From the NCBI GenBank assembly GCA_973895155.1, contig OZ316891.1, positions 27,255,561 to 27,319,560 of the forward strand: a stretch of 64,000 bases of DNA. Reading direction: 5' to 3'. The notes under the pieces are model-generated. The model was not told the DNA's origin and ran no database searches. It was given only the letters and a program-made list of their open reading frames with translations. Made by a program: the position numbers and the translations under genes. Positions 31,704 to 60,900 of this stretch are shown one piece after another; positions within the stretch are counted from its first letter, which is position 1, and the number at the start of each line of letters is the position of its first letter. Source of the DNA: Marsupella aquatica (lineage: Eukaryota; Plantae; Marchantiophyta).

Positions 31704-32952
31704 ACGCTGCAACTTTTCTGTTTTGAGTGTTATTTCTTTTTTACAGGGAGAGCTGGAGGTGGATATCCATGATGATTCAGATGGTCCCAACAAAGTTGAA
31801 TACGATCGTGCTCCTCGCCCATACCGACCTCCAAACCACCCTGACCACATTCAAGATAACAACAGATTTCAAAGGGAGCACACATCATCTACCTTGTAGT
31901 CCCGAGTGGAGTTCTCCCATGGTACAATGGAGCGGCCTATCAACCTCAGTGATTGTGAATCACCAGAGGTCTTGCCAGAACTGACCTTAGGGAAAAGATG
32001 TCTTCCTCCTCATAGCTGCAAGGCTCGGGCTAGACAGATTAAATGAGAATTTTGATCTTAAAGTCCTGAAGTAAATAGAGGGAAAAGTTTGCTTCCACAG
32101 TCGCTTGCAAACGATGTAGACTCAGTAATGAAAAGGTTCAATTCCAGTTGTTATCGAGAGTTGTTTCATACAGCCAAACACTTGTAATTTCTATTTCAAT
32201 AAAGAAGTAAGTTCACTGAACATTCAAATTCGACCTCTTTACTGCATGATTCAAATTGAAGAATTGACATTCTGCTACTTTTGCTAGTTCTCTTTGTCAT
32301 TGGCCACTTGCTTCTGGTAGGACAGTGCTGATGCATTCCAAAACTGAAGGTCGTAGACATTGTTGGAGGGGCCGCCCATCTTTAAGGGGACATTTTGTGC
32401 CCATTCCGACATCCCATCGATATATTTTGCAGGCACATTCAAATCTAAGACTTGGAATGCTCTAACATTGTCAATTGGACTTGGACTCTGGATCACTGTT
32501 GTCTTCATAGACATGGACTGCTTCTGTTTTGTATGAACCCCTTTTCCCTTCTTTTCCTTTTCAGAAATTGTTGTGTTGTCTTGCATCACAATCACCTTCT
32601 GTTTAGTTCTACGAGTTTGTTTTCCTCCTGTGTTGTGATCTCTCGCTACCCTATCCAAAAAGTCTTGAGTGCTTTCCTTCAACACCACGATCTTCTTGAA
32701 TGGCAAAGCATTGAGTAAAGAGTTCTCCTACTCCATGACTTCCTTTTGTTCTCGTGTCTGCCTCTTTGCTAATGGCCGCTTTTGTCCTTTGTAAATATTA
32801 TCAACAATGCTTAGGTGCCTTTTCTGGCTGTTCTCCGGGTCTACTCGCTTCAAGGTCCTTGCCTTTGCACTTTGGAAGGCACGATCTTGCTTCCTTGCAT
32901 TCCGTGCCACGATGTTCTTTACTTCATGCCTCCAATTCTTTAGTTTTGTCAT

Positions 32953-33282
32953 TGTCACACCATTTAGAGTGGTAGTAAAGTATATCGTACTATCTAGGGT
33001 ATAGAGGTTTTGTATGTGTGCTATATGAGCACTTTGTGTTTAGTTTGAGTTGGTGTGAGGGATAGTTATCCCCTTGTGTTGGCTCAAAGGCCTCATCTTT
33101 CAATGTTGAGCCTTTGAGCATGAGCTTGGTGGCTATGGTGTGGCTGACCAGGTTGTGTGCATGTAACGTGGATTCCTTGAAGCACAAGGTGCGTTGGGCT
33201 TGACATATATGTGTGATTGAGTCGGACAGGAACGTTGTTGGATTAGCACTGATCATTATTCAATTTTATCCGTTGAAGATTA
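32953..33282 (+). repeat. Terminal repeat A1 (copy A2 at 42371-42700)
   Basis: First 265 bp differ from A2 at 1 site; last 65 bp at 10 sites. Confidence 0.95.
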
Positions 33283-33869
33283 CATTGAAAGATCACTGCA
33301 AGTTGATTCGAAGTTGTTTCAAAGCTTGCTGTATTGCAGAGTTGATCCATGGTAGCTTGGATTGTTGAGATCTTGCTGGTTGATTTGTGGCGGGATTTGT
33401 GGTAGCTCAAGTCAGATCAGCCGTTGGTAGATTGGAGATTGTGAGCTATTGATTGCTCTGAGAGTACAGCTTGGTGTTGTTTGAAGCTCTCTGATAGTTT
33501 GTTCATTGAAGTCCTCTCTGGAGTTGATTACCGGGATTGACATTTGGAGCTTCTCGAAGCTATGAGGGATTGATCGAAGATCAGAAGGCGTCTCAAGTGG
33601 TAGTTGCTACATTGTGTTTTTGGAGTTTAGTCCTTACCGATTGCATTGCAGCATCGCAAAGGCTATTGCGGATTTGAGATTCGTTGATGGATAGTACACT
33701 TTTACAAAGAAAGTGACAATCAAATGTTGGTGAATTGTGCTGTTGGTGTCACGATGGAGTCCGCGTTGCGACGAGGTGCGGCGACAACCTAGGGCACAAG
33801 GAAAATGACAATATTGTTGAACAATGTTTTGGTCCGAGAATTGCAGCGTGTTTTGTGGCGCGCCTTGTT

Positions 33870-34452
33870 TTGGACTGGGATCATCCGAGTCCAATTGTGG
33901 GTTGTCTCTTGAGAATCATTTTGACTCAAAGTTGGATTTGGATTGGGATCATCCGAGTCCAATCGTGGGTTGTCTCTTGAGACCTCATTTTCACTCAAAG
34001 TCGGATTTGGATTGGGATCATCCGAGTCCAATTGTGGGTTGTCTCTTGAGACCGCATTTTGACTCACAGTTGAATTTGGACTGGGATCATTCCAATCCAA
34101 CTATACATTGGTAACTTCGGACCCCATTTGGACTTGAAGTTGAAGTTGGATTGGGATCATCCCAATCCAACTGTACATTGACAATGTTGGAGACTTGATT
34201 TTGGGCGAAGGTGAATTTGGATTGGGATCATCCCAATCCAACTGAATGTTGGCGTGTCCAGAGACCTCATCTGGACCTTGAAGTGGATTTGGATTGGGAT
34301 CATCCGAGTCCAACTGTGTGTTGGCGTGTCCAGAGACCTCATTTGGACCTTGAAGTGGATTTGGATTAGGATCAACCCAATCCAACTGTATCTTGGCAAC
34401 TTCACCTGTGTAGAGGACGTGAAGGACTTGGATTGGGATCATCCCACTCCAA
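33870..34452. repeat. Array of nine 25-bp palindromes TTGGATTGGGAT-C-ATCCCAATCCAA with 67-72 bp period
   Basis: Copies start at 33870, 33938, 34007, 34076, 34146, 34217, 34289, 34361, 34428; an isolated reversed copy lies at 37604-37628. Confidence 0.92.
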
Positions 34453-35068
34453 CTTGTGGACCGGGCGTCCGGATGACTGTTGAATGGATTTGAATTGGAA
34501 GTTCACCCCGACGTAGCGAAATGTGGTGGGTGTGAAGGGCTCCCTCAGGCTCATCTCGGCGACTCGTGATGAGGGGCGTGAGGGCAGAACAAGAGCTAGA
34601 TCGGAGCGGGCCGCAAGGTAGCTTGCGGGTACGTGAGGAGTAGTTGACAATTGGTTGGTTTGGAGTGCCTAAGTTGGTGCATAACTCCAAGGGGGGAGGT
34701 CACCCATCCCAAAGCTATTCCTCCTACGCGTGCTTAACCATGGAGTTCTTATGGCATGCAGTGTACACACAAGCTTTCACAACTTGTTGTCTAAGTTAAA
34801 GGGCCAGGGGGCTTTATATACTTATTAGTTTGTCTAGAGACCTGTTTTGGGCCAAATCAAAAGCTACTTAGAGGTTTTTGATATTTCTGAATCCATCTAG
34901 ATGCATAGATTGGATCAATTTTGCATGGATTCTTAGCTACAACCTTGGGGCATTGTGAAGCCTATTATGAAGGTGATGGTGATGATTTAGGGCAGATTTG
35001 TTATCACGGATTCTTCGGGTGCTACGGGGCTGTTTGGGGGACAGAGGACCGGTTTCACTCGAAGTGGG

Positions 35069-37400
35069 GTGCCATTTCGACCAACAACATTGATAGCAAT
35101 TGCAAGTGCAACTTCAGATAGTGATTCTAACGAGGACTCTGGGACCAGTTCTCCTTGTCATCGGGTGATTGCACCTTTGTTGTGGGATATGGAAGAGATG
35201 TACGGGGCTACAAAGGGCCCACGACGATACTCTGGTGCAGTTGGCACGATCGATCTGGATGACTTCATCCAGGAGTTTGATGCGTGGTGCGATATGCAGT
35301 CATTGCGTAATGCCACATTGTTTACCCCTTTCATGGTATGGAAGAGATTATTTCAGCATTTGGAGGGGCCACCCATGGATGATTACCATGAGTTTTGGAA
35401 GGCTCATTTGGTCGAGATTGAGGCATGGAGGCAGCATTGGTCGCCTAATTATGTGTCCATCACGTATGGCACTAGAGCAGCTGCCCAACCCATTGCTACA
35501 GCTGTTGCTTCTTCTAGTAGCACTAGCCAGAGTGGCACACCATCTACCAGTACCACTCCATCAACATCCATCGCTACTCCTACCGGTGTGATTGTGACAG
35601 GGGTTGGAGTTGCGCCAACATTTAACCCCGTGGTGGAGTTCTTTGAAGTATTAAAGCAAAACTATCAGGGTGTGAGGACTGATAAGTTGAAGGGTCTCCA
35701 GGATTTTTAGCGCAAGACTGGAGAGAGTCTACGTGAGGCATACACTCGTATGCGTAGATTAATCACTGTCACCAAGGGAGTGACAGAGGCTCAGGCAGTC
35801 CAATTTTGGTATGCAATTCTGGATAGAGAATTGCAACGTAGAGTGAGAGATGTCACTTTGCTTAGGGATGCAAATCCCACATTGGCAGTTGTTTTTACAC
35901 TTTCTGAGCGAAATATGGTGAATGAGAAGGTGGTGACTTTTGGATTGCCAAGGAAGCACCAAAGGCTGCATCTACATCTACACCACAGCCTACTGCACGG
36001 AAGAGCCAAAGGGAGAAGCCTATTGCACGAGAGTCTACCAGTCAGAGACTTGTGCCTTCCTATGCAGGACAGTAGTTAAGATGTTGGACCTGTGGTGGGG
36101 ATCATGCACAGCGGTGCCTAATCATAGAGGGTCAAGAGGAGCCTCAGCACCTGATCAGCGGCAGTGTGATCATTGTGGAGCTCCTGGACACACCAAGGAT
36201 AGGTGTTTTTTACTCCATCTTGAGTTACAGAGAGGAGGACAACGCACACATGATCAGGGAAGAGGAGGTAGAGGTGGTGGTCGTGGCCGAGGTATGCCAC
36301 ATGTAGCAAGGCAGGGAGGTGATACTGCTCCTGCTGTGACCACAGATCCTAAGGATGCTAAGATTGCTCAATTGGAGCAACAACTAGCTGCTAGTTCTCA
36401 AGTCAGACTTGCTTCTAGGATGGGGCTTCCACATCTTATGGAGCTGATGGGGACCTTGTCACCATGGGATTCATGTGTGGCACTGCACATATTGATGCAT
36501 CAGCAGCTTTGACACGTGGAGCAGCCAAAGCTTTTGAGCCCCAAGGAGCAGTAGTGGAGCTAGATCCATAGAGGGGGGATGCATGTCGGCAGACAAAGCT
36601 TCCTCAATCTTTTACATTGTTAGAGACAGTTCAGACTGCCTCTATGAACCTGGTTCGAACAAACCCTAGTGTGGGTAAGTTGGCAGAATCAGGTAGTGAT
36701 GCAGCAGGGATGATTGGTACCTTGTTGGGGGCGGCTACTACCATAGTGTGCACCCCATTATTTTCAGCGATAGACATGTTGAACTTGGAAGTTGGTCCTG
36801 CATAAGTGTTCAAATTGGCAGCTACACTCTGTGAGGACACTCCAGTTGTTGCTACCCATGCAGAAGCAACTTGCAGTGTTGAAGCAGTGAAGACCATGCC
36901 ACCTACTGCTACTAGTGAGACCTGGCATGTAGCAGCAGCAAGGTTGGTGGATTTACCAGCACGCCCTGCATTTGAGAGGACTAGGTTTAAACCTAGTGTT
37001 GTGTCATTGGATAATCGGAGTGGTATCTTTCGATTAGTTGGGCCTTCTGGAATGGTGTACCAGCCAGAGAGAGTGTTACTGGATACTGGTGCTCAGCCCT
37101 TGATGTTGGGAAAGTCTGCCATATGTGGATTGGGATTGCGTCTAGAGGATTTGGAGGATTGTCCCTTTCCCATTTAGACTTCATTGGGGGGACCTACACC
37201 TACACCTACATAGCACATCACCAGGAGACCAATTGATTTGAGGATTCAAGAAGGTCATGCGACAGATAGCTCACAAATACAAGCGCGAGCTATTTTGACT
37301 AAGGCAGAGTCATATGATGTGTTAGTGGAATATACAGTGCTCTACCCCATGGGATTTATTCTTGATTTTTGGGATGAATCAGTGTCATATAGACCTGATT
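35069..37400 (+). pseudogene. Gag-like region with CCHC knuckle plus aspartic protease
   Basis: RRYSG..DLDDFIQEFDAWC; ESLREAYTRMRRLI; CDHCGAPGHTKDRC; RVLLDTGAQPLMLG; YDVLV; several stops and frameshifts. Confidence 0.8.
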
Positions 37401-37816
37401 GGCAGTCAGGAGATGCTCGATTGAGCAGGTTGCCAGTGCAATTTAGTGGACCTGTGGGAGGCCCTAAATCCATACTATTGTCTTTGGCAGCATTCAGTGG
37501 TGTGATGACTGGACCTGATGATTTGATTGAGGGTAGTGCGCATGCAGCAGATGTTCCATCAGTGGAGGAGTCACATGAGGAGCAGATGGTGCGAAGGAGC
37601 AACCTGGATTGGGATGATCCCAATCCAACTAGTGTTGTGCCACCAGTATGGGGTACTGCACAGGCCTTGCCGCAGAGGGCAGCACAATTGGTACATGATG
37701 CATGGCGTCATGCTTTTACACCACAATCCGGAGTAGAGCAGTCTCCTACAAGTGGGCCAGTGACTCTTTCACTATTCGATACCACTCCTATTGCATGGCA
37801 GTATCTACCAGAGGGT

Positions 37817-38770
37817 ATTTGTTTGTTGGATCTATTTGGTGGGATTAGCACTGGATTGGCTGCTATTCTTGAGGCAGGAATTCCTGTGCGTCGCTACTTG
37901 TATGTGGAGACAGATGAGACAGCACGGAGAGTCTCATTGCACCATGTGGCTATGTTGGTGGATTATTATCCATAGTTGTTGCCAGTGGATACTATTCATG
38001 GCTATCAACATGCACTGCCTGCTGATATTTCACTGTTGGGGGCGGATCATTTGGATCGCGTTGGCCCCATTGATTTGGTGATTGCTGGTTGGCCATGTCA
38101 AGGCCAATCTAGAGCTGGAGTTGGACATGGACTTCATGATCCACGCTCTGCATTGTTTTGGGAGATGTTACGGGTATTGCGTCATCTCCAGTTACATCAA
38201 ACACATTCCCCTGTCTACATTTTGGAAAGTGTGCCATTATTGGGTGATGAGCGTCATCGACTTGTTGCTAGTGTTCATCAGGTCAGATCTTGGATTGGGC
38301 CTGTTGTGTTATTGGATGCTGCACATGTGGGTTCTCGTGCACATCGTCCACGCTTGTGGTGGACTAATTTGTTACCTTGTGAAGTGTTGAAGCGAGCATT
38401 TGATAGCATTCCTCGCTCAGCATCCTTGGTGGTGGATGATATTTTGGATCCAGGGCGTTGTGCACAACAAGTGACCCAGTCTGACAGGCCTCCATTGGCA
38501 GTGGTCAATGTAGTTGGTCGCCCGCGTTGTGCATTACCCACTTGTGTGAGTCATTCTGCTTCATATGCATTTAGAGCAGGTGGGCCTGGACTTGTGTGGG
38601 ATACAGCGCTACAGCAGTTAGTGGACCCTATTGCTGATGAAAGAGAGCGTGCTATGGGATTTTTGATAGGCACTACTGTAGTTGCCTCAGTGTCAGAGAG
38701 TTCACGCCGCCAAGTCCTTGGTCAAGCCATGGATTTGAATTGCTTGACTTGGATTATCAGCTTGGGATTA
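37817..38770 (+). pseudogene. Retroelement-encoded C5 cytosine DNA methyltransferase domain
   Basis: Motif I LLDLFGGISTG, II YVETD, IV IAGWPCQGQSRAG, RSALF, VI ILESV, VIII RAHRPRLWW, IX ERERAMGF, X RRQVLGQAM; a single in-frame TAG at 37973-37975. Confidence 0.92.
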
Positions 38771-39002
38771 GCTGAACAGTTGCGGATGCGCTCTGCTGGT
38801 GTTACTGATCGTCCATTAGTGAGCTTGCAGTCCACTGAGACAGTGATGACCACAATTGGGGGCGGGCAGACAGTCCATGGACCTATGGCAGGATTGGGCC
38901 AAGGCTGGACAGATTGTTGAGCAGGAAGGGACTACTCAATCTACTGCTAAATAGCAATCATCGGTTATCTCTTCTACCCTAAAAAAAGATATTAGGGATC
39001 TA

Positions 39003-40571
39003 GTGGAGAGTTGGGAGCCACAGATTGGTCCTAAGTTGACAGGGGAGGAGAGACATCGCATGCATCGATTCCTGAAGAGTTATTGGAATTGTTTTGCATT
39101 CAGCATGAAGGATTTGGGGACATTGAAGGGCCCTGGTATTCAGATTGAATTGGCTAGTGATGCACCAATCTTTCGTAGACCATACCGCTATATTGACATG
39201 GAGAGAGCTCTGATTCAGAGTAGAACTCAGGATTTGTTGGAGGCTGGTTTGGTGGAGAAATCATATAGGGAGTATGCATCTGCCATAGTGATGCCAGCCA
39301 AGAAGGATGTGCATGGTAATTACACGGATAAGCGCATGTGTGGTGATTACTGACCTATTAATCGTCAGACAAAATATGATCGATATGCCATGCCCACACC
39401 TGAGGAGATCTTTGATGTAGTGGGGCATGCAAAGGTTTTTAGTTCATTGGATCTGAGGGCAGGGTACCATCAGCTTCCAATCAAACATTCTAACAGGTCC
39501 AAGACAGCATTATGGGGAATTGATTCTTATGGCAAGGATCGTTTATATCAGTGGTTGTTCTTACCATTTGGGTTGAAGAATGCACCAGCTGAGTTCCAAA
39601 GAGTCATGGATCGAATTCTTGCAAGTTTGTATTTTGTTAGATGTTATATTGATGATATTTTGGTTTATTCTTCTACTATGGAAGAACATCAACGACACTT
39701 GCAGATTGTGTTTGAGAGGTTGAGGGAACATGGATTGAAGCTCCATCCTGGCAAGTGTAAGTTCTTTCAAGAACAGATTGAGTATTTGGGCCACACTATA
39801 TACCCAGGGGGATTGGGTGTACAACAGACTAAAGTGGAGGCTATTACACAGATTCCTCGTCCTACTGATGTGAGTAGAGTTCATGCATTTTTGGGATTGG
39901 CGAGCTACTACAAGAGGTACGTTAAAGGATTTAGCCAGCTTGCTAAACCTTTAACCATACTCACTAAGTTGGATCAGGAATGGATTTGGGGTGATGATCA
40001 GGAGCATGCCTTTCAGGAGTTGAAAGAAAGATTGGCATCATCCCCTATTTTGAGAAGACCCATTTTAGGGAGAATATTTCAGCTACACACTGATTGGAGT
40101 GGAGTAGGACTTGGAGCAGTGCTAACTCAAAAAGATGATGAAGGGCATGAGTTTGTTGTGGCATATGCCAGTAGATCAAACAATTTAGCAGAGGCTAAGT
40201 ATAGCTCTTATGAGGGAGAGTGTTTGGCAACAGTGTGGGCTGTGGCACACTTCCGTTGTTACTTGTTTGGTAATCCTTTCACTTTGATCACTGATCATCA
40301 GCCTCTCAAGTGGTTAATGGAGTCTGACAAGCTTACTGGAAAGCTTGCAAGATGGGCATTGTTGTTGCAAGAATATGATTTCCAGGTTGTACATAGACCT
40401 GGAAAGGTGAACTTGGATGCAGATGGGTTGAGCCGCAATCCATGTACCAGTCAGCAGGATGAGACTGGAGCCAGATGGCATGGTGAGCCAGATAAGGAGA
40501 TTTGCCAGGATGGCATGCATCTACCTTCCTTTGTTGGGTTCCAGCATGCAGTGGATCTGTGGATGTTGTAG
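39003..40571 (+). pseudogene. Ty3/Gypsy reverse transcriptase + RNase H
   Basis: RMCGDY*, LDLRAGYHQ, PFGLKNAP, YIDDILVYS, YLGH, TDWS..LGAVL, ECLA, TDHQPL, ADGLSR. Confidence 0.95.
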
Positions 40572-40750
40572 ATGATGAGTCTTCAGATGTGGATGTTGGT
40601 GAGGTAACTTCTGGACAACAAGATATTCACAATGATGTGAGAATGTTGGAATATCTATGCAGTGGTTCTATTGTTGGCAATGTTGATGCCAAGGAACGTG
40701 ACAGGGTTCTACAGAGAGCCAAGAGGTTTTGATGGGAAGGAAACCATCTT

Positions 40751-42064
40751 TTGAGAGTACTATGTGATGGTAAGGTGTTGGTGGTACCAAAACCATCACA
40801 ACGAGCACATTTGGTGCGACATGCGCACGAGGAGTTAGGGCACTTTGGTGTCAAGCGCAATTATAGCTTGCTGCAGACACAGTATTGGTGGCGTGGTATG
40901 CACACTGATGTTCAGCAATTGATAGCTAAGTGTGTGGTTTGTGATCGAGTGCGAGCATCATTTAATACTCCCACTCCCCAATTGCATCCGTTGCCAATCA
41001 TGGGTTTGGGATATCGATGGAGTTTGGACTTTGCTAGTCCATTGCCTCTTACCCAACGTCATAATCGGTATGTTTTGGTTATGGTGGAGCACTTCTCCAA
41101 GTGGATTGAACTAGTGGCATTGCTAGACAAAGCTAGTGGAGGAGTGGCTACCACATTTTTGGATTGAGTACTCAATCACTTTGAAGCACCAGCTGAGGTG
41201 TTGACTGATCAGGGCATAGAATTCCGTGGAGATTTTGAGAGTTTGTATGAGCAAGCTCTGATTGACCATCGTACTACTTCTCGCGATCATCTTGAGGCAG
41301 ATGGATTGGCAGAGAGAGTTGTACAAACTATGAAGAGAGGACTGCGCAAGTATGGCTTGCAGGTTGGTCATTTGGGAGACTGAGATCTCCAACTACCTTG
41401 GTTAGCTATGGGCTACCGTTTCAGTCGGCAAACATCACTTGCATCCTTGTCACCCTATTTCTTGCTCTATGGTAGAGAGCCAGATTTGCCAACGGCTATT
41501 CATCGTGATGTTGCAACTATTGTGGATTTGGATGATCCAGATATTTGGGTAAAGGTTTGTTTAGAGAGGGCACAAGTTTTTTAGAGAGTCATGCCCATGG
41601 CCTTTGACAACCTTGCTATTGCCCATCATCGTGATACTTTGTGGTATGCTACTATTCGTGGAGGAGGTTATCGCACGAGGATTAGGAGATTCCATCCTGG
41701 CGATTATGTCTATTTGCAGCAGACAGCACCAACGACGCTTGATGTGACCGCAGGGCGGACAATCTTGCGTGTGCGTGAAGTGTTGCCTTCTGGAGTCCTT
41801 ATATTGGAAGGGCGTGATGGTATGGTTTGGAAGGATCACGTGCGTAATTGTGCGCCATGTCACCTTCCAAACATTGATGGCATTGTGGATCCAAGCTTGG
41901 CACATGTTTGTGCTAGCTTGAAGTGTATGTTGTGTGGGTCTGCTCAGGAAGCAGCTACTATGTTGATTTGTGATAGGTGTTCTAGAGGATGGCACTTGTT
42001 GTGTTTGACACCACCCTTGCACATGATTCCTAGCGGATCATGGTTTTGTCCTCAATGTCGGTGA
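40751..42064 (+). pseudogene. DDE integrase with HHCC finger and C-terminal PHD finger
   Basis: HEELGHFG..CVVC; WSLDF; TDQGIEF; DGLAERVVQTMK; then CMLC..ICDRCSRGWHLLCLTPPL..GSWFCPQC (C4HC3). Confidence 0.93.
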
Positions 42065-42232
42065 TGCCGACCAGTTATCATTTGTGTTCTTGTGGAAGAT
42101 ATAGATTGCAGGTAGGTGATCGATGGGGCTCACTTGCACCCGGCCTCCTGATCTTTGCACCTAAAAAAGTGTATATTAACCTTGTAGAACTCATGGCTAG
42201 TTAGAGACCTCACTCCCAGCTAGGGGGGCGAT

Positions 42233-42837
42233 TGTGGGTTTTGGGCATGTGTGGACATTGGTTCCATTTGTACTCCATTCTCTTATGTTTGTGTTATTGG
42301 ATTGTGACTATGCTTGGATATGTGTAACAAGGGATGTATGTTGTGTAGCGATGTGTATGTGCACGACAGCTGTCATACCATTTAGAGTGGTAGTAAAGTA
42401 TATCGTACTATCTAGGGTATAGAGGTTTTGTATGTGTGCTATATGAGCACTTTGTGTTTAGTTTGAGTTGGTGTGAGGGATAGTTATCCCCTTGTGTTGG
42501 CTCAAAGGCCTCATCTTTCAATGTTGAGCCTTTGAGCATGAGCTTGGTGGCTATGGTGTGGCTGACCAGGTTGTGTGCATGTAACGTGGATTCCTTGAAG
42601 CACAAGGTGCGTTGGGCTTGACATATATGTGTGATCGAGTCGGATGGGAATGTTGTTGGATTAGCACTGATCGTTGTTTGATTTCATCCATTGAAGATTA
42701 TTGTGGGTTTGGGGCATGTGTGGACATTGGTTCCATTTGTACTCCATTCTCTTATGTTTGTGTTATTGGATTGTGACTATGCTTGGATATGTGTGACAAG
42801 CGATGTATGTTGTGTAGCGATGTGTATGCGCACAACA
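42233..42837 (+). repeat. 3' block B1-gc-A2-t-B2
   Basis: 136-bp B (tgtgggttt...gcac(g/a)aca) occurs twice, with ~5 differences, flanking A2. Confidence 0.95.
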
Positions 42838-44129
42838 TCATTGCAATGCTACGAACATTCAGGTCCCCATCACAAATCAGAAGTGTGTCTCCCACTACTT
42901 CTCTGAAATCATCGTCCATGAAAGTTGCCACAACATCTGATCTGTCACCCTATTTTTGTGTTGCGACGTCATCTCCTCCATCAGTATTTTGTCCATGGGG
43001 AGAGTGATGTTGAAACATGGAGGCATTTCCACGTCCTCAAAAAATTTATCGAAGGCAGGTCTTTCGAATGTGCAAGTAGGTGCCACCATGATGCCAAATC
43101 GTGTGCCAAATCTTTGCAGAATGTCAATTTATGTCATCCCCTTCATACTCAGAATCTTGAACACCTAGTGTTTACAAGTGTTCCCCTGGATGGAGCTATC
43201 ACAAGTGCAAACACAGTCCTCACTGTCGTAGTTCTCCAGTATGTGATTGTCTGTCTTCGATGGCGTCTAGGACTTCACCATTGTTGTTGCACTCTCAGTG
43301 AAGAAAGTCACATCACCATCTGGGATTGTCCTGGCTCTAAGAATAGCCGACCACACATAGTTCTCAATGTTCTTGTTTCTCACCCTGCCTTGCCACTTCA
43401 TACACGACAAGCACCAGAAAAATGTTCTAGCTCATTCACAAGCTGTGTCACTAGCCACACCACCTTCCGTCCTAGCTTGAAAGGCTTCTCCGTCCTCAAA
43501 TGCAACTTAAGAGTAGCATGCCACCGCTCAACTGCTCCATTGGTGTCCTGGTTGCCATGTTTGAACTTCCTGAAATTTCCACCCACCTCTCCACTCTATG
43601 GTGCCACTCTTTCTCATAGTATGCAACAAAGTCCTTCTGCGTGCAAATCCACCTTCTCATGAAGTTATGGGACATGTTCACAGCATCTGCAAAACAAATA
43701 AACAAAATAAGTGCACAATTCACAAGTGTGAAAAAACCCTGCCACCAAACATCACCATTAAACACCTTGGCAGTGCACAGCCCAGGAAAGAAATGTCAAC
43801 CCCAAGTGTACCTGTTGGAAGTGCACCATGATGTTGCCCAACTCCTTATTCACCTCGGCCCTTGAAATTGGGTCCAGAATTTTCTTCAAGATGTTTTTGT
43901 ATTGGGCACGTCAAACATGCCATAAACACAATACAATAGGGACTCCAGGCCATAGTGATCTGCCAAAGGATGCAAACCCATACACTCATGAGGTATAAAC
44001 ACTTCAAATTAGAGGGTTGGGGACAATTTGGCTATGTTAAGATTGGAGGGAGGGTAAGGGGTGCTAAAATAGGCTACCAAGGGAGGGACAACACATATTG
44101 GAACTGACTTCCGATTCCTCATAATGGGC

Positions 44130-44640
44130 TACTGCTTATTCTACTGGGAAGTTATGGAGGGGTTTGGAAAAAGTGGTTTTTCCTAGGAGGGCTCCAAAGT
44201 GGGGGGTTTGGGGACATTCTAAGCAAAAGATACAAAGGGACTAAAGGGCCAGGAAAATTGGGGTATCGTACCAAGGGATGCTCATCTTGAAAAAATAACT
44301 TCAGATTTGGAATAGGGGGGCTTCTTATTCTATTGGGTGAATTGGGGACTGATTGGAGGGGTTTGGAAAAAGTGGTTTTTCCCAGGAGGGCTCCAAAGTG
44401 GGGGGTTTTGGGACCTTCTAAGCAAAAAATACAAAGGGACTAATGGGCCGGGAAAACTGGGGTATCGTACCAAGGAATGCTCATCTTGAAAAAATAACTT
44501 CAGATTTGGAATCAGGGGGGCTGCTTATTCTATTGGGTGAATTGGGGATTGATTGGAGGGGTTTGGAAAAAGTGGTTTTTTCCATGAGGGCTCCAAAGTG
44601 GGGGGTTTTGGGACCTTCTAAGCAAAAAATACAAAGGGAG
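44130..44640. repeat. ~199-bp tandem repeat (~2.5 units) in the MULE intron; a diverged unit continues at 51590-51720
   Basis: ggaggggtttggaaaaagtggttttt..gagggctccaaagtggggg..ttctaagcaaaa.atacaaaggga at ~44157, 44355 and 44554. Confidence 0.85.
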
Positions 44641-44656: not shown

Positions 44657-47600
44657 TGTTGAGCATAGACGACATTCGCAACGGCAAGCCCATGAACCAT
44701 CCAACGCACAATAGTCAAACAGAGAGATACGTGGTTCACCTCCACATGAGGCTACGTCCACGGGAACACACAAGAGCTTTACTGCACTCTAGGCCGACCG
44801 GCCATACCAAGCATCCACAGCACAAACTCTCCCTATCTCTCAACTAGCTCCGTAACAATGAGCCTAAGTTTCACCAGGGTCTGGCATCAGCCCTGGCTAT
44901 ATGCACAACAGCACTACCGCTAACATTAGTTAAGCCCTAACCCAAGTTAGCCTAACTATAGTTAGCTCATGAGTCACAAGACTAGAGCAATTTCTAACAA
45001 ACTCCTCCTTGACTCTTGTCTTGGGGACTGGACTAAATGCTACCATATGGAATCCTCAGCGGGAAATTCTAGACAATCATCAAACCAGGTCTCCCCCTAA
45101 AAACCACAAGGGTTAACTAAGGGTTAACTAGAACTAAGCCGTAGCCAAACAGGAATGAGTAATCCATATACATATAGTCACACATTGCTAAATAACTCTA
45201 CTTGCACTACAACTGCAAAACCTGCAAAGTAGCACGGTGTCTTGAGAAACTTTCCAAAGGAATCACTTTGGTAAAGGCATCAGCGAGATTGAGCTTTCCA
45301 TCAATCTTGACTAGCTCAAAAGTTTTATCAGACATTGCTTGCCTGATAAAATGGTACCTGATATCAATGTGCTTCACCCTGCTATCCATCACCTGGTTAG
45401 CAGCCAGGTGAAGAGCACTCTGACTATCATAGTTTAGAGTCATTGCGCCATGCTCTAAACCCATCTCCGTGATCAACTTATCCAACCAAATTGCTTCCTT
45501 TGCTACTTCTGCTACTGCAACATACTCTGCTTCTGTAGTAGACTGAGATATACACTTCTGCAAGGTAGATTTCCAACTGATACATCCTCCTCCAAGAGTT
45601 AAAAAAACCCAGTTGTAGACCTCCTTGTATCTAGATAGCCTCCATAGTCAGAATCTACATAGCCAACTAACATTCTATTTTATCTATTATCAATAGTAAT
45701 CCATAGTCCTGTGTTCCCTTCACATACTTGAGAATCCATTTCACAGTTTCCCAATGTATCTTCCCTGGATTTGACATGAATCAGCTAACCTTGTCCATCG
45801 CTAGGGCCAAGTCAGGCCTAGTACAAGTCATCAAATACATCAGACTGCCTACTACCTTCTCATAAGGAATCTTAGCCATCAGACCTTTCTCCACAGCATC
45901 CGTAGGAGAGAAAGCCGATGATAACTTGAAATGTGAAGCTAAAGGAATACTCACTGGCTTACAATTTTCCATGTTGGATCGTGCAAGTATTTTCCTTGGA
46001 TATTGGCCTTGACTCATGCACAACTATCCAGTATCAGAGTTCCTAAAAATCTCCATCCCTAAGATCCTCTTGGCCTTACCAAGATCCTTCATCCTGAATT
46101 CAACACTGAATTTTGCCTTGAGATTGTCAACCTTAGATTGATCTTTAGCCACAATCAGCATGTCATCCACATAGATCACTAGAATGATGAAACCAAACAC
46201 ATCATTCTTGACTGATTTTGTATACACACAAGGATCATACACCATTCTTGTAAAACCTTGAGCAAACATGAAATCATCAAACTGCTTGTTCCACTGTCTG
46301 GGAGACTGCTTCAATCCATACAAAGATTTGAGCAATCTGCAAACTAAGTTCTCTTGGCCCTTCTTCATAAAGCCTAGTGGTTGTCTCATGAAGATCATCT
46401 CTTCTAAGTTGCCATAGAGAAAAGCAGTAACAACATCCATCTGATTCATCACCAGACAAAAAACACAACAAGTTGACACAAGATCCGAATTGTGAAATAC
46501 TTAGCCACCGGTGAAAAGACCTCATTGTAATCCACTCCTTTCTCCTGAGTAAATCCCTTGGCAATAAGCCTTGCCTTGTAGATCTTATCTCCACCCTCTG
46601 AAGGATTGTCCTTAAACTTGTAAATCCACTTGCTGTCCACCACTTGCTGACCTCTTGGAAGCTCCACCAGCTCCCATGTCTTGTTGTCACTCAAAGATTG
46701 CAGCTCCCTCTACATTGCTGCATTCCACTCATGCTTCTGCTCTGAAGCACAAGCCTCATTGTATGAAGAAGGCTCTCCTTCTTCCAAGATCAAAGCCATA
46801 TCATCTTCATCAGGTGCAATGTCAATATCGTCTAGCTTAGATGAGTCTGCCCATTGACCATACCTGGTAGGAGCTCTAGTAGAGCGACTGGAAGTTCTTC
46901 TAGTAGATGATTCAAACTGATCTGCTGCTGTTGCTGGCTGAATTTGTGGTACCCTAGCAACAATCTGCTCCTCTTGTTCCATCACAAGAACCAGCTCCAA
47001 GCCTGGAGCTTCTCCATCTCTCCTGTCATGAACTACATCATGACTAATCTCCCCCTCAACCCGGTCCAGGATGGGAGATTTCCCCTTGTCAGTATGGGAG
47101 TCCTGAGAACTCTCCCCCTTCTTTGATGATCTGGACTCATTAAAGGACACATCTCTACTGACAATTAACTTACAAGTTACTGGATCCCATAACCTATAAC
47201 CCTTCACCCTTTCTGATAGCCAAGGAAAATGCACTTCTTTGACTTGGACTCCAGCTTGGATCGAAGCTGGGAAGGTGTAAGCACATAAGCATCACATCCA
47301 AAATCCTCAAATGTGAGTAATCTGCTGGACGCCCGTACCTCATTTCAAATGGCATCTTGAATCCAATAGAACTAGATGGAGAAAAATTTACCAAATAAGC
47401 TGTAGTGTTGACAACTTCAACCCAAAACTCATGTGGTAAGCATGATTGACTCAACATACTTCTCAAGCGGTCCAATAGTGTTGGTTGAGTCTCTCAAAAA
47501 CACCATTCTGCTAAGGAGTATAACTTGTTGTGAGATGATTGGTAATCCCCTGCTCCTTACAATACGTTCCAAATTCCCTGAAACTGTATTCATCACTGTT

Positions 47601-54324: not shown

Positions 54325-55389
54325 CTAAATTCTATCCGTAATCTGAAGTACTAAGTCCTGCCTACTCTTTACTCTTGTGTTTATTCTACAGAATTTTGAT
54401 GTTTGTCTGTGAACTTCGCTGACTACCTTCACAAACTCCCTAAAATTTGTGGCGAATAGCCCATGCGCAGCTCCTAGGCCTTTTGTGCATTGATTAGTTT
54501 CATGCTCAGTGAAGTCTTCCTTACGAGACATCCACAATATGATCTCTATGTGCCGAGGAGTAAGTTCTGAAGTTGTCAGTTGAAGAACATCATATTTGCG
54601 CACTGGCCACGATGCAAAAAGCGAATTAGATTCCTCAAACCCCTGCAGTTGAGTGTATATATGTTGATATTTTTTCCGGTCTTCAGCTAAATTCAGACTG
54701 GACCATTTTGGAGTGTTTCGCCACAAATACACACGCACATCTCTTGCCAAGGCCAACTCTTGCAACACTGGTTGAAGTTTGTTGCTTATAAACGTATCTG
54801 CAAGAAAACCATTCTTATTGCCGTTGAAGCAATCACAAAACAACATCGAGTATTTGGGGTTAAAGAAACTTCTATGAGGTAAATCATCAAGAAGGATGGT
54901 GTTGTTGTCATTATAAGGTGCGCTTGTCCGATCTCCATTTAAAATGAGGTCATCCCAAATATTTTTCAGTAATTTCACAAAGCAATTTTTCCCTTTGTTT
55001 CTTCCAGCCCCATAAAATATCCCAGTTGACAAGGCTTCCACTTCAGTTCTCACAAAGACAAATCGATGCTTCTTGTTGGGAAACACTTTCTCCAAAATCT
55101 CATGCACATTATGATATACGACATAGGCCCATATCCCCACATCAAATGTCTGAAGACACCATTCAACGAAGCGCCGCATTCCCGGTCTTACATAGATGAT
55201 TCTATTCTTTAGAAACAATGTCTCCCCGTTTTCAGTATTTATATCCCTAAGAGACTTTGCTCGCACTCCCAATATTTGCACAATATGTAAGACGACATTC
55301 ATGTCAAGTACGAGCAGTTTACGAGGAACGGTGTTTTGTATAATAGTTGCCATATCGTATGTTACAATATCTGCAGAGTGACAAAACAA
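54325..55389 (-). CDS. FCP1/NIF-like HAD phosphatase domain protein
   Basis: KLLVLDMNVVL, YVRPGMRRFVEWC..FDVGIW, VKLLKNIW, NTILLDDLPHRSFFNP. Confidence 0.8.
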   Translation of the reverse strand: MFCHSADIVTYDMATIIQNTVPRKLLVLDMNVVLHIVQILGVRAKSLRDINTENGETLFLKNRIIYVRPGMRRFVEWCLQTFDVGIWAYVVYHNVHEILEKVFPNKKHRFVFVRTEVEALSTGIFYGAGRNKGKNCFVKLLKNIWDDLILNGDRTSAPYNDNNTILLDDLPHRSFFNPKYSMLFCDCFNGNKNGFLADTFISNKLQPVLQELALARDVRVYLWRNTPKWSSLNLAEDRKKYQHIYTQLQGFEESNSLFASWPVRKYDVLQLTTSELTPRHIEIILWMSRKEDFTEHETNQCTKGLGAAHGLFATNFREFVKVVSEVHRQTSKFCRINTRVKSRQDLVLQITDRI

Positions 55390-55501
55390 TAAATGAACAT
55401 CAATATCGTAAAGTCAATGCAAGAGCATAACATCAATTACGACGCATTGCAGCGTATGGAAAATCTGACGATAACCTATTCCACACAAGAATCACGTAGA
55501 T

Positions 55502-56112: not shown

Positions 56113-57891
56113 GGGATACGCTGTATCCCGTTTCAGATTCATCCCACTAAAATTAAACAAAAACAAGCTAAGTTGATCATTTGGCGCCTTAAGTTACCAT
56201 ACCGATTAAACTAGATTTGAATATTTACCAAAAGTAAAACTACGTACTGCAGAAAATTTACTAGCGACCACAGTCGACCAACGCAGTCAGTTAAGTTAAC
56301 CCAAGCAGATGGCTAGATATATTGTAGACCGTTTATTTCCCAACCACTGACCTCCATCTAAGAAATTAGAGGTATGAATACCAATAGGGATCCATGGATC
56401 CCGTTTTATTTCCCAAGTCCCAAAACAACTCAGCCAAAAGTCGGGGTGAATACGAAATGGGATCCACGGATCCCATTTGGTATTCAACCTTCCAAATTTG
56501 CCCTTGTCAAACACCTACGTCGAAAAATCAGCGTTTGAATGCCAATCGGGATCCATGGATCCCAAAATCCGATCCAACTCAAGAAACAAATAATTTTGGA
56601 ATACTCTTTTCTCTGAAAGATCAATTTCATTCTTGTTTAGAATGTGTACGGACCAATGAGTGAACGCCACGTGGACATCTTCCCAAAAACTATATAAGAA
56701 CAAGCTCGCATGTGATTCGATCTTCATTTTTTACGACTCATTTAGGTTCCTGAATAGTGAGTCTCTATTTTTTGTAGATTGTAGTCACTGGAACGTTCTC
56801 TTCCCCATAGGAATCCTTAGTCCTATAGAACCTTGATACTATCGATGGTGTCTTCAGGCGATGAGTCGATTTATAGTTCTGATGCATCTTCGCCAGATGT
56901 TGTTCGCAAATTCATTCCATCTTGTTTGATGAAGGAGCTTCCAGTCTCACATAGAGTTTTGCCAGAGATGTCATTTTCATCAGATTCAGAGAGTTCAGGG
57001 TCTGATTCCGAGTCTGGGAGAAGTGTTGTTAGAGCTCCAACATCTTATTATGTTTCTCCAAGCAAACCACTTAAACGGCGTTTGCTTGGGAGAAAGTCCA
57101 CTATCATACCCTTAGGTCAGACTAGTTCACCACGAACCCCACCAGATGCACCCAAACGGAGGCCTCAATTTCTAATGCCAAGAACGATGTTACCATGTAG
57201 GCCCGCCAAGAGATCTCCTTTGGTTTTTCCAATGTCGCATTCTCCTGGAGTCTAGATAGCTTTGTCCAGTGTGCAATCACAATTTGAGCAAATGAGAAGT
57301 CCGACGGTGCTAGAAGTGCCGGCCGCACGAAGAATGCCCAGAGGGATCCCTACTCAAAGTTTGCGGAATGGAGAGCGTGAATTGCCAATTTTGTCTCCTT
57401 CGCTACCAAATTCCATTAGTGGAATACCAAGTGGGATCCGTGGATCCCATTTGGTATTCCCTCCTAAAATTTTACCAAATGGCGAGCCGGAATTGCAAAG
57501 TGGGCAACCTTCGCCTGCTCTTTCGGGGGGAGGAATGCAAAAGAGGATCCGTGGATCCCACTTGGTATCCCCCCTGGAATTTTACCAAACGGCGAGCCCG
57601 AAGTGCAAAGCGGACAACCTTTGCCTGCTGATTCGAGGAGAGGAATTTGGAACGGGATCCGTGGATCCCACTTGGTATCCCCTCCTGGAATTTTACCAAA
57701 TGTCGAGCCTGAGTTGCGAAACGGACAAACTTTGTTAGCTGCTTTGGGCGGAGGAATGAGAAAGGGGATCCATAAATCGCATTTTGTTTTACACAACAAA
57801 AAATTGTCAAGCGCTGCCGTAGAACCGCAAGTGGGGCAGCTCTCACTTCGAAGTCCGAGTGGATGAATACAAGTCGGGATCCATGGATCCC
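56113..57891. repeat. Dispersed and tandem palindromes GGGATCC-NN-GGATCCC, some extended to ~40-bp hairpins; ~110-bp tandem unit at 57420-57800
   Basis: Cores at 56113 (variant), 56387, 56459, 56548, 57433, 57544, 57654, 57765 (degenerate), 57876; a further variant at 62908. Confidence 0.9.
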
Positions 57892-57908: not shown

Positions 57909-60900
57909 GTGATATCGCCTAGTGGTCAATCAAACGCCAACTTTGGGCTTTGGAGCCCTTTGGCGCAAATGCAGTGTGAGGTTGTTGGATCTTTGGTAGG
58001 ACGACCAGTTCAGAAGGGAGGAAGGAGATCAAGTGTCGCAAATGCTGTAGGTGTCCATCAAATTCCTCACAGGTTGTTGCGAAGTGCGTTGCCGCAAACT
58101 TGCCCCAACAATTCAAGGCTAGAAGGGAAACTGACGGTTGTTCAGAGACTATTCAATGGTCAAGATGATCCCTCAAGTCGAGATGAGACACCAAGGCAAG
58201 GATTACGACAAGTGGTGGATACTCCGATAGAAGCAAGGAATATAGGTAGAAGATTTCAAACAAGAAATCTCCAGGTACCACTTGCTTTTCCAGAAGAATC
58301 TGAAGAGGAATTGGAGGTGTCTGCCGATGCCGTAGAGGATGCTGTAGAGACTGTGGTAATTTCAAATATTGTTAAAGAGATCCTTGGTCTAGAGAGTGTT
58401 CACGAACCAGTCTTAGAAAATGTAGAGAGTGAAAGTAATACTGGAGAAGATCAAGATACTTTTGTTTTAACTTCAATGAGTCCCATGGAAACTAGTGGAG
58501 GTGTGAATTCTCCTGACACAATACAGGATAGAGTAGAGGTGAGAAGACCAAGCAAAAAAATTAGAGACCAGATGATTCGAAAAGATAGACTTATCAATGC
58601 GAACTTGAAAAAACAAAAAATTAAAGATATTTTTAAGTATTCCTGTTGTGACAAGTTTTGCTTGAGGTCTTTAGGTCTAGAAGAATGTTGGAGACAACAC
58701 AAGTATTATTTTGGTCTCTCACACTCACAAAAAAATATTCTTTTGCGAGGATGTATTATGAGTAATTATAATACTTCCCGTGGATATAGTGTGAATGGAC
58801 AAATTATTTGTAGAGGAGGTTTCAAGAAACTATATTCCATAGGGAATAATAGGTTGGCTACAATCCATGCAAACATGTTCACCAGGATTGAACGAGATAC
58901 TTTCTGCAAGGAAGACTCACCTTCATTTCTCAACTTGGTGGAATGGTTGAAAGATTTCTTTCAAAAAAACATGGATAGTCTTCCCCATAAAGAAATTCAT
59001 CACTTGCCAGACAATTGGACAAAGCAAGAGATTCATGAAATCTTTCTGGCCGAAACAATCTTGCGAGAAGAGCAATATGTTACATATTCTTATTTCTTGC
59101 GCGTTTGGAAGATTTTTTTTTCGAATGTGCGGATTCCCAAAAGGAGTCGGTTTTCCACTTGTGGTCCATGTACCGAATTCAAGGCTCTTCGAGACAAAGC
59201 AACAACAGAAGAAGATAAAAGTAAGTTCACTGTAACCTCACATTTTGTGCCTAAGTAAGATATTGACAAGTTAGACACAATGATGAATAGATAATTTATT
59301 GATTATGTATTATTGTATTATTGCAGGAAAGTATATCAATGCTCTTATGGAGCATCGAAGAGTACAATCACTCGAGAGGATGAAGTTGGCAAAGCATCAA
59401 AAAAAATGCTATGATGAACCCAACAAGTATTTGGGTATTTGTATTGACGGTATGGATCAAAAGAAAACTGAGCTGCCACATTTTATTCGCTATCCAAAGA
59501 ACATGGATGAGAAATATTTCATCCCGATACATGTTGTGGGTTGTCTTATCTTTAATAGAAAGCTTGCAGCCAAAGTATTTCTGACCTACCCCAACATCCA
59601 CAATGATGCAAATCTCACCATTCATGTTATTTAAAATATTTTGAATACATGGGATGGGATACTGCCACGGGTATTATATCTTCAATTGGATAATACCACT
59701 AGGGAGAACAAAAATAAGTTCTTGATGGCTTATCTACACATGTTGGTAGATTTAAAGGTTTTTGACAAGATAAAAGTTGGTTTTTTGTTGGTTGGTCATA
59801 CGCATGACCAAATAGATCAGATGTTTAGCAAGTTCTCATCTAGATTAAATAAGCATAAGGCATTTCACTTAGATACTCTCGTGGATATTATACAACTGGC
59901 ATATTCTCCTCAAGCAAATGTAATTTTTGTGGATGAAGTTGCGGACTTTAGAAAGTTTGTGAATGAGACCGACCAACCAAATGAAAATGGAGTTTCAGGT
60001 CTCATAACTATTCAAAGGCAATTCAGATTCAAGCGAGGCATTTTAGATGACAACGAAGTGACCATGTTTCATGGGAAATATCTATCTACAACCTCTGATT
60101 GGGGAGATGTGGTAGCGTTTGTGAACTACATCCCCACTTCGAGAATGTGGGTTGCAGCACAAATGTCACTAAAGTCAGCAAAAGGTGTTGAACGGGATGA
60201 TGATCTGATGGACTCAAATGGTGCATTATCTATTCTGGTGAAATATCAAAATTCTGGTTTTGTATCATTTCAGTATTAATGTGTATGGTATAGATGAATG
60301 CTTTGTGACCTTCTTTGTAGTCTATGATGTTTGAATCTGTGAATTCATATTAGTGTACATGGTATAGAAGATGACTTTCTGAAAATTTGTGTGAGGTTCT
60401 AATGTTAACATGGTGAATGGTGACCTTATAGAGTGAGTTCATTCCAAGTACACAATAAAACATGAATGGAATGTGTTATTTGTGCACAAGAGTGAGTTCA
60501 TTCCAAGTAGTATAGTGGGGTCTTCATCACTCATTTCCAGTTGACATGAAAGACTTGTACATACCCCACAAAGTGTCTACTTTAGTCGTTTTATAAACCC
60601 ACAAAGTATACTTAAAGACTAGCCTCCATAACCTTTTGAGTCATTCCCAATGACTCACCATCGCAGTCCATAAAAGACTGAAAAAGACTCACCAAACCTA
60701 CCCACACAAAGACTACAATAGACTGAAAATCCAGTCTATAAAACGACTTATAAACCAGTTCTATAAAGGACTCAGTTGATTATAGTAACAAAACATACGA
60801 CTCATAGTCCTATACAGGACTGGAGTCCTTCCCAGTCGTTTCCAAGTCCTATACGGTATTGAATAGTTGTTTTATGGGGTCTAAATACCCCCCGGTTTCT

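What the first reader, a model, noticed from the sequence alone, without database searches (positions are those of the whole stretch)
33870..34452. CRISPR-like geometry: nine conserved 25-bp palindromes with faster-evolving 42-47 bp spacers in the element leader
Seen: TTGGATTGGGAT-C-ATCCCAATCCAA (with variants such as ..ATCCGAGTCCAA) recurs every 67-72 bp. The spacers are related in groups but diverge much more than the palindrome. A tenth, reversed copy sits alone at 37604-37628 in coding sequence just before the DNMT domain. Inference: selection on the palindrome, for example as a dimeric-protein binding site, an RNA hairpin for packaging, dimerisation or priming (there is no PBS), or a target of the element's MTase.
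Basis: partly seen in the sequence, partly recalled or inferred. Interest (0 to 1): 0.72.

Follow-up and report, generated by a model that had tools for sequence, protein, structure and literature searches.

The report
Palindrome array in a retrotransposon leader
A jumping gene that carries its own DNA-methylating enzyme has nine spaced copies of a 25-letter palindrome in front of its genes, likely a row of protein landing sites like those known in other transposons rather than anything CRISPR-like, and one copy likely slipped into its protein-coding part.

Summary
The array is real: nine 25-bp near-palindromes at 33870-34452 with 42-47 bp spacers, and a tenth at 37604. The palindrome is far better kept than the spacers (9 changes in 25 columns against 75 in 47; 0 of 20,000 shuffles). 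It lies in the leader of a decayed Gypsy element of the published KnitGypsy-Dnmt3 kind (Dnmt3-like domain in pol, A-coding-B-A-B ends), probably from a bryophyte. It is not CRISPR, shows no hairpin covariation and is unlikely to be a peptide repeat. None of 80 related loci (mostly one family) has such an array, so this group of elements does not need it for priming, packaging or integration. The tenth copy is an in-frame 6-7 residue insertion in the protease-DNMT linker of one subfamily; 'reversed' is not established. Best reading (0.5): a tandem-amplified array of symmetric DNA-binding sites, like the gypsy/ZAM 5'-UTR arrays or VANDAL target arrays. Selection is inferred, the binding protein is unknown, and homogenisation by template switching or an RNA role remain open.

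The parts
32953..42837 (+). Whole decayed Gypsy-type retrotransposon with a Dnmt3-like methylase; TG...CA ends; A-coding-B-A-B repeats
   Evidence: self-BLAST, Pfam, ends
32949..32952 (.). Left copy of the 4-bp target-site duplication (TCAT)
42838..42841 (.). Right copy of the 4-bp target-site duplication (TCAT)
32953..33282 (+). Terminal repeat A, 5' copy (96.7% identical to the 3' copy)
33083..33118 (+). Predicted hairpin in repeat A; its outer arms also lie at the aligned place in repeat A of relatives, with a different inner part
33283..34990 (+). Leader between repeat A and the gag-like frame (about 1.7 kb; about 1 kb and without an array in relatives)
33870..34452 (.). Array of nine 25-bp near-palindromes starting at 33870, 33938, 34007, 34076, 34146, 34217, 34289, 34361, 34428, with related 42-47 bp spacers
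34991..36512 (+). gag-like region, broken by stops and frameshifts
   Evidence: 41-60% identity to bryophyte proteins
36806..37400 (+). Protease-like region (LLDTG motif read from the sequence), broken; limits approximate
   Evidence: no Pfam hit
37604..37628 (.). Tenth palindrome, in frame, inside a subfamily-specific replacement (about 37590-37630) of the protease-DNMT linker
37826..38750 (+). Dnmt3-like C5 methyltransferase domain, interrupted by a stop at 37973-37975; end approximate
39354..40571 (+). Reverse transcriptase and RNase H
40733..42064 (+). Integrase (zinc-binding and core, broken) followed by a PHD finger
42231..42368 (+). Repeat B, first copy
42367..42372 (.). Internal B|A junction CA-GC-TG: both element ends joined by two extra bases
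42371..42700 (+). Terminal repeat A, 3' copy
42700..42837 (+). Repeat B, second copy (96.4% identical), ending in CA

Best explanation
The array is a lineage-specific tandem repeat in the leader of a Gypsy-Dnmt3 retrotransposon, and its 25-bp palindrome is likely a symmetric landing site for a dimeric DNA-binding protein that would tune the element's transcription or chromatin. Shown: a unit of about 70 bp was repeated nine times; spacers drifted by substitutions and indels while the palindrome kept its sequence; unit number and spacer make-up differ between family copies; related elements with the same ends have no array. Inferred: purifying selection on the double-stranded sequence, multiplication by slippage or reverse-transcriptase template switching, and a regulatory (enhancer, insulator or anti-silencing) effect through a host factor. 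Also inferred: the tenth copy is a leader unit copied into the variable protease-DNMT linker by a template switch and kept because it left the frame open. The binding protein is not identified.
For: Repeat against spacer: 9 changes in 25 columns against 75 in 47, with 0 of 20,000 best-window shuffles as low. Among one unit per spacer group, columns with a transversion are 2 of 25 against 20 of 47 (p 0.003), so methyl-C mutability does not explain it. Sequence is kept better than pairing: covariation 0.065 against 0.063 shuffled, and pair 8/18 is unpaired in 5 of 10 copies. Contigs of 4 runs from 2 studies cover the array and show joints that skip whole units. 0 of 80 related loci hold three or more similar palindromes. 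The tenth copy is a 6-7 residue insertion; its peptide is absent from all 54 protein relatives. It is bridged by contigs in two runs, and 0 of 40 listed substitutions lie inside it. Precedent: 19 of 49 Drosophila LTR-element 5'-UTRs are tandemly repeated and some bind host proteins (PMC8872304); VANDAL target motifs accumulate by tandem repeats (PMC5735166).
Against: No binding, expression or methylation data. Among the 12 differences listed in the array between this copy and other copies, 4 are in palindromes (225 bp) and 8 in spacers (358 bp), about equal per base (40 rows shown, 223 hidden; mostly CG/CHG decay contexts). One minor variant lacks most of the array (joints 33913 or 34050 to 34620). 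Periods of 6.4-6.9 helical turns are not phased. Palindromes can convert one another without selection. The 80 relatives are nearly one family (53 of 57 leaders in one cluster). The direction of copying between leader and pol is not shown.
Confidence: 0.5

Rival explanations
1. No function: a tandem repeat whose palindromes homogenise each other because every arm can pair with every other arm during reverse transcription or repair, so template switching and conversion act on the palindrome but not on the spacers.
For: Units 6 and 7 have 94% identical spacers, but unit 7 carries the palindrome type of units 1-3, which fits conversion. The copy in pol shows that the motif moves by template switching. 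Relatives lack the array. Differences listed across copies are about even.
Against: Conservation has a sharp edge and no indel in 10 copies. Self-correction within one palindrome should let copies drift apart in symmetric pairs, which is seen at only one pair.
Confidence: 0.22
2. The palindromes act in the element's RNA as self-complementary hairpin-to-duplex switches for genome dimerisation or packaging, like Ty1 PAL1/PAL2.
For: The array folds at z = -6.8, as any palindrome array would. On the sense strand 4 departures are G-U wobbles and 1 is a two-sided change. PAL1/PAL2 in the Ty1 5'UTR are needed for dimer formation (PMC6844567 abstract).
Against: Covariation is no higher than shuffles (345 of 500 reach it); 9 of 110 cells are unpaired, 5 of them at one pair. 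Relatives with the same ends have no array. A better-conserved hairpin candidate lies in repeat A.
Confidence: 0.2
3. The array is the remains of a repeat protein frame (LDWDHP on the sense strand or LDWDDP on the antisense strand), and the same peptide was gained in pol.
For: With the 1-bp insertion that other copies show in unit 1, 7 of 9 palindromes share one phase. Several recurrent variants are synonymous in the sense frame (sequence). Stops in this copy may be decay.
Against: Units of 70, 71 and 67 bp are gap-free in other copies (records 28 and 30; record 13 over unit 8), so palindromes 5 and 9 are read in another frame yet keep the same DNA. No third-position bias in spacers. No protein relatives for either frame.
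Confidence: 0.05
4. The palindrome is the sequence-specific target of the element's own methyltransferase.
For: Other copies read C at arm position 6, a CHG context, where this copy reads T, so the arms hold methylatable sites.
Against: The domain is Dnmt3-like (through the closest relative), a class with 2-3 base preferences (recalled). 5 of 9 leader copies have no CG. The same decay is seen across the leader. Relatives keep the methylase without the array.
Confidence: 0.03

Closest known systems
KnitGypsy-Dnmt3 of Klebsormidium nitens (PMC5890265; section 9 and passages read)
   Same: Dnmt3-like domain inside a Gypsy pol; DIRS-like repeat layout with Gypsy domains.
   Different: Probably a bryophyte host (named relatives: Calypogeia, Marchantia, Riccia, Sphagnum); C-terminal PHD finger; leader palindrome array and its copy in pol, which the passages and three supplement texts searched do not mention.
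Tandem 5'-UTR arrays of Drosophila gypsy, ZAM, Tirant, accord and Idefix (PMC8872304; passages read)
   Same: Same position between the 5' repeat and gag; polymorphic tandem organisation; host-protein binding with enhancer, silencer or insulator effect.
   Different: Here the kept motif is a 25-bp dyad; no partner or activity is known; one copy lies in coding sequence.
VANDAL/VANC target-motif arrays of Arabidopsis (PMC5735166; passages and section 9 read)
   Same: Family-specific motif accumulated by tandem repeats in non-coding parts, with gain and loss of units between copies.
   Different: VANDALs are DNA transposons that encode the binding protein and use 8-9 bp non-palindromic motifs; no VANC-like gene was found here.
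Ty1 PAL1/PAL2 dimerisation palindromes (PMC6844567; abstract read)
   Same: Self-complementary sequences in the 5' leader of a retrotransposon.
   Different: Two palindromes needed for mobility, against nine spaced, imperfect copies that relatives lack.
CRISPR arrays
   Same: Conserved palindromic repeat with regular spacers of similar length.
   Different: Spacers are homologous to each other, the setting is a eukaryotic retrotransposon, and no Cas domain, Rfam CRISPR family or prokaryotic or viral match was found.

Membership tests
CRISPR array | Regularly spaced conserved repeats | tested here: met
CRISPR array | Unique spacers acquired from foreign DNA | tested here: not met
   spacers align to each other at 42-94%
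CRISPR array | cas genes nearby, or a known CRISPR repeat family | tested here: not met
   no Cas family among 28 frames scanned, of 64 listed; 17 Rfam hits, all miRNA models below gathering score; 0 matches in prokaryote and viral contigs
Gypsy-Dnmt3 retrotransposon (KnitGypsy-Dnmt3 kind) | Gypsy domain order with RT-RNase H before integrase | tested here: met
Gypsy-Dnmt3 retrotransposon (KnitGypsy-Dnmt3 kind) | Dnmt3-like C5 methylase inside pol | tested here: met
   Pfam DNA_methylase; best PDB hits of the 76%-identical relative P0002 are DNMT3A
Gypsy-Dnmt3 retrotransposon (KnitGypsy-Dnmt3 kind) | DIRS-like A-coding-B-A-B repeats | tested here: met
   same in 6 of 16 relatives self-compared
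Gypsy-Dnmt3 retrotransposon (KnitGypsy-Dnmt3 kind) | Common descent with the Klebsormidium elements (RT or DNMT tree) | not tested
   no Klebsormidium sequence was among the fetched proteins; no tree was built
Protein-binding 5'-UTR tandem array (gypsy/ZAM type) | Tandem array between the 5' repeat and gag, polymorphic between copies | tested here: met
Protein-binding 5'-UTR tandem array (gypsy/ZAM type) | Sequence-specific protein binding with enhancer, silencer or insulator effect | not testable with these tools
   needs binding and reporter assays
VANDAL/VANC anti-silencing system | Element-encoded protein that binds the motif | tested here: inconclusive
   no extra gene with relatives in the leader; binding by Gag, DNMT or integrase is untested
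RNA dimerisation palindrome (Ty1 PAL type) | Pairing kept by compensatory change | tested here: not met
   only 10 copies from one element, so power is low
RNA dimerisation palindrome (Ty1 PAL type) | Needed for dimer formation | not testable with these tools
   needs in vitro RNA work

The most novel reading that the evidence does not exclude
The palindrome is a subfamily barcode: a retrotransposon that carries a Dnmt3 writer and a PHD reader uses an array of dyad sites, plus one planted inside pol, to mark its own copies for sequence-specific escape from silencing or for self-methylation. That would be a VANC-like self-recognition system in a retroelement, with sister subfamilies carrying other barcodes.
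Probability: 0.12. Interest if true: 0.8.

Novelty: new variant of a known kind. Interest (0 to 1): 0.42.

Why it matters
How retrotransposons that carry their own cytosine methylase use it, and how they tell their own copies from host DNA, is open. A 25-bp dyad kept in nine copies, specific to one subfamily and also planted in pol, is a concrete bait for finding a binding protein. The work also places the split-repeat Gypsy-Dnmt3 elements in bryophytes and shows 4-bp target duplications with an internal end-to-end junction, which bears on how an integrase element with DIRS-like ends replicates. If the array proves neutral, it is a clear example of palindrome-biased homogenisation.

Tried and rejected
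No whole genome is held, so there is no genome-wide motif map and no full-length family copies. The palindrome pattern found 0 matches in viral contigs, prokaryote genomes and the 80 fetched loci at 3 mismatches. Rfam gave only miRNA models below their cut-offs. No RNA holder was listed, which is no evidence on expression. The peptide-repeat idea was my early favourite; it was dropped. The protein searches with the two array frames were empty, which is weak evidence. A 16-nt match between spacer 2 and the end of repeat A in relatives has E 0.25 and is not used. mis-sliced 7 loci whose match lies near the contig start; the count was redone. Earlier scan notes returned nothing. Paper searches found no description of this array; most subscription papers are not covered, and supplements of the bioRxiv preprint were not seen. 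A MITE or excision-footprint origin was considered; the 4-bp direct repeat around the tenth copy is not present as a target in relatives' linkers as far as the protein alignment shows, so it was not pursued. Likeness to plant transcription-factor motifs is recalled only and untested.

Full report
Observation. The 25-mer occurs ten times in the window within three mismatches, nine times at 33870-34452 and once at 37604; 100 shuffles give none. Periods are 67-72 bp. Repeats are 91% alike on average and spacers 63%, in groups. On a tree of the eight complete units the palindrome needs 9 changes in 25 columns and the spacer 75 in 47; 0 of 20,000 column shuffles gave so conserved a 25-column window. 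Taking one unit per spacer group (5 of 8), columns with a transversion are 2 of 25 against 20 of 47 (p 0.003). Only 2 of 9 leader copies are perfect palindromes. The orientation of the tenth copy cannot be read from a palindrome. Its flanks lean to the same orientation as units 6 and 9 (p about 0.01 each, uncorrected), and BLAST scores both orientations equally.

The element. The array lies in the leader of a 9.9-kb decayed retrotransposon (32953-42837). Its order is gag-like, protease-like, C5 methylase, RT, RNase H, integrase, PHD finger. Its repeats run A-coding-B-A-B, it ends TG...CA, and it has a 4-bp target duplication. Named protein relatives come from Calypogeia, Marchantia, Riccia and Sphagnum, so the host is probably a bryophyte. 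The closest relative's methylase matches DNMT3A best. This is the layout published for KnitGypsy-Dnmt3, whose repeats are 'the same as that of a DIRS retrotransposon' with Gypsy domains (PMC5890265, section 9). Common descent with it was not tested.

Other copies of the same family. Contigs of four runs from two studies cover the whole leader (30 of 30 bins each). Several joints skip whole units or join halves of different spacers, and one minor form lacks most of the array, so unit number varies. Other copies read C where this one reads T at arm position 6 of palindromes 5, 6 and 9, and G for A at position 24 of palindrome 7. These are CHG and CG contexts, so this copy has decayed as methylated DNA does, and its perfect palindromes may partly be products of decay. 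Against my reading: of the 12 listed differences in the array, 4 lie in palindromes (225 bp) and 8 in spacers (358 bp), about even.

The tenth copy. Its peptide is absent from all 54 protein relatives, and an alignment of 17 of them shows a 6-7 residue insertion in the variable protease-DNMT linker wherever they cover it. Contig depth drops about ten- to a hundred-fold over 37590-37629 in all four runs, with loose ends at both borders. Depth is no copy number, but the pattern says that most sister copies have another linker. Two contigs bridge the site without gaps (X2 record 14, X4 record 29). None of the 40 listed substitutions lies inside the 25 bp (3 rows hidden; one contig has a 1-bp deletion). 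So the copy belongs to a subfamily and is not private to this insertion. In 20 relatives the longest word shared by leader and coding region is 10-14 nt; here it is 26. I infer a template-switch capture of a leader unit; the reverse direction is not excluded.

Relatives. Of 80 metagenome loci with Gag at 43-58% identity, 57 have at least 1 kb upstream and 46 have the element's 5' end located. One of the 57 has a tandem array (L027, 53 bp by 4.5, not palindromic, no 5' end located), and 0 of 80 have three similar palindromes. Six of 16 self-compared loci show the same A-coding-B-A-B ends. So the array is not needed for this group's replication. The sample is narrow: 53 of the 57 leaders form one cluster.

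What it is not. It is not CRISPR: spacers are homologous, and there is no Cas domain, Rfam family or prokaryotic match. It is probably not a peptide repeat: units of 70, 71 and 67 bp are gap-free in other copies (one record, 29, does differ by 6 gaps), spacers show no codon bias and neither frame has protein relatives. For that idea, 7 of 9 palindromes do share a phase once unit 1 has the length seen in other copies. An RNA hairpin is possible by energy but has no covariation support: 345 of 500 shuffles reach the score, and one arm pair is broken in 5 of 10 copies.

Mechanism. The pattern of sequence kept, pairing tolerated to slip, spacer length free and copy number variable fits best a row of symmetric double-stranded DNA sites for a dimeric protein, multiplied by tandem duplication (0.5). 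Precedents are the tandem 5'-UTR arrays of Drosophila gypsy and ZAM, which bind host proteins (PMC8872304, passages), and VANDAL arrays of VANC target motifs (PMC5735166, passages and section 9). Selection, binding and any regulatory effect are inferred. Palindrome-biased conversion without function (0.22) and an RNA dimerisation role like Ty1 PAL1/PAL2 (0.2; PMC6844567, abstract) remain live.

Novelty. Leader arrays in Gypsy elements and Gypsy-Dnmt3 elements are both known; a preprint also lists the latter as 'streptophytes (Gypsy-DNMT3)' (10.64898/2026.05.21.726589, passages). A 25-bp dyad array with a copy captured in pol was not found in eight paper searches or in three supplement texts of PMC5890265. 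I rate it a new variant of a known kind, interest 0.42.

Noticed in passing
window 42367-42372 and element ends; L001, L024, L043, L051, L061, L070, L077, L080: The internal B|A junction joins the element's two ends (CA and TG or TA) with exactly two extra bases in the window and in all 8 relatives seen, reading CA-GC-TG in the window, L001, L043 and L077. Four-bp target duplications are present in the window and in L024, L051, L077 and L070/L080 (these two probably the same insertion). This looks like a stored circle junction that an integrase would process; mechanism untested.
   Followed up: partly
window 33083-33118 and 42501-42536; repeat A of many loci: A hairpin with the same 7-bp outer arms lies at the aligned place in repeat A of the window and of relatives, with a 22-nt against a 9-nt inner part. 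It is a better candidate than the array for a group-wide RNA or single-stranded DNA signal.
   Followed up: partly
window 41585-42064: The integrase ends in a PHD finger; PHD domains also occur in relatives P0034, P0051 and P0055. The element thus pairs a methylase with a likely histone reader.
   Followed up: no
window 33985-34000: 16-nt exact match between spacer 2 and the end of repeat A in about a dozen relatives (E 0.25); may be chance.
   Followed up: partly
L014, L015, L022, L047, L051, L052, L075, L076, L079, about 150-170 bp before the gag match: A subgroup of relatives has a different single palindrome built of 4-bp repeats in its leader.
   Followed up: no
window 45200-47300, minus strand: Pieces of a copia-type element (RVT_2 and retroviral SH3 hits).
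   Followed up: no
window 44155-44639 and 57433-57771: Other tandem repeats of 199 bp (2.4 copies) and 110 bp (3.1 copies).
   Followed up: no
window 54325-55413 (minus) and 59635-60279 (plus): Frames with NIF-like phosphatase and DUF7869 hits.
   Followed up: no
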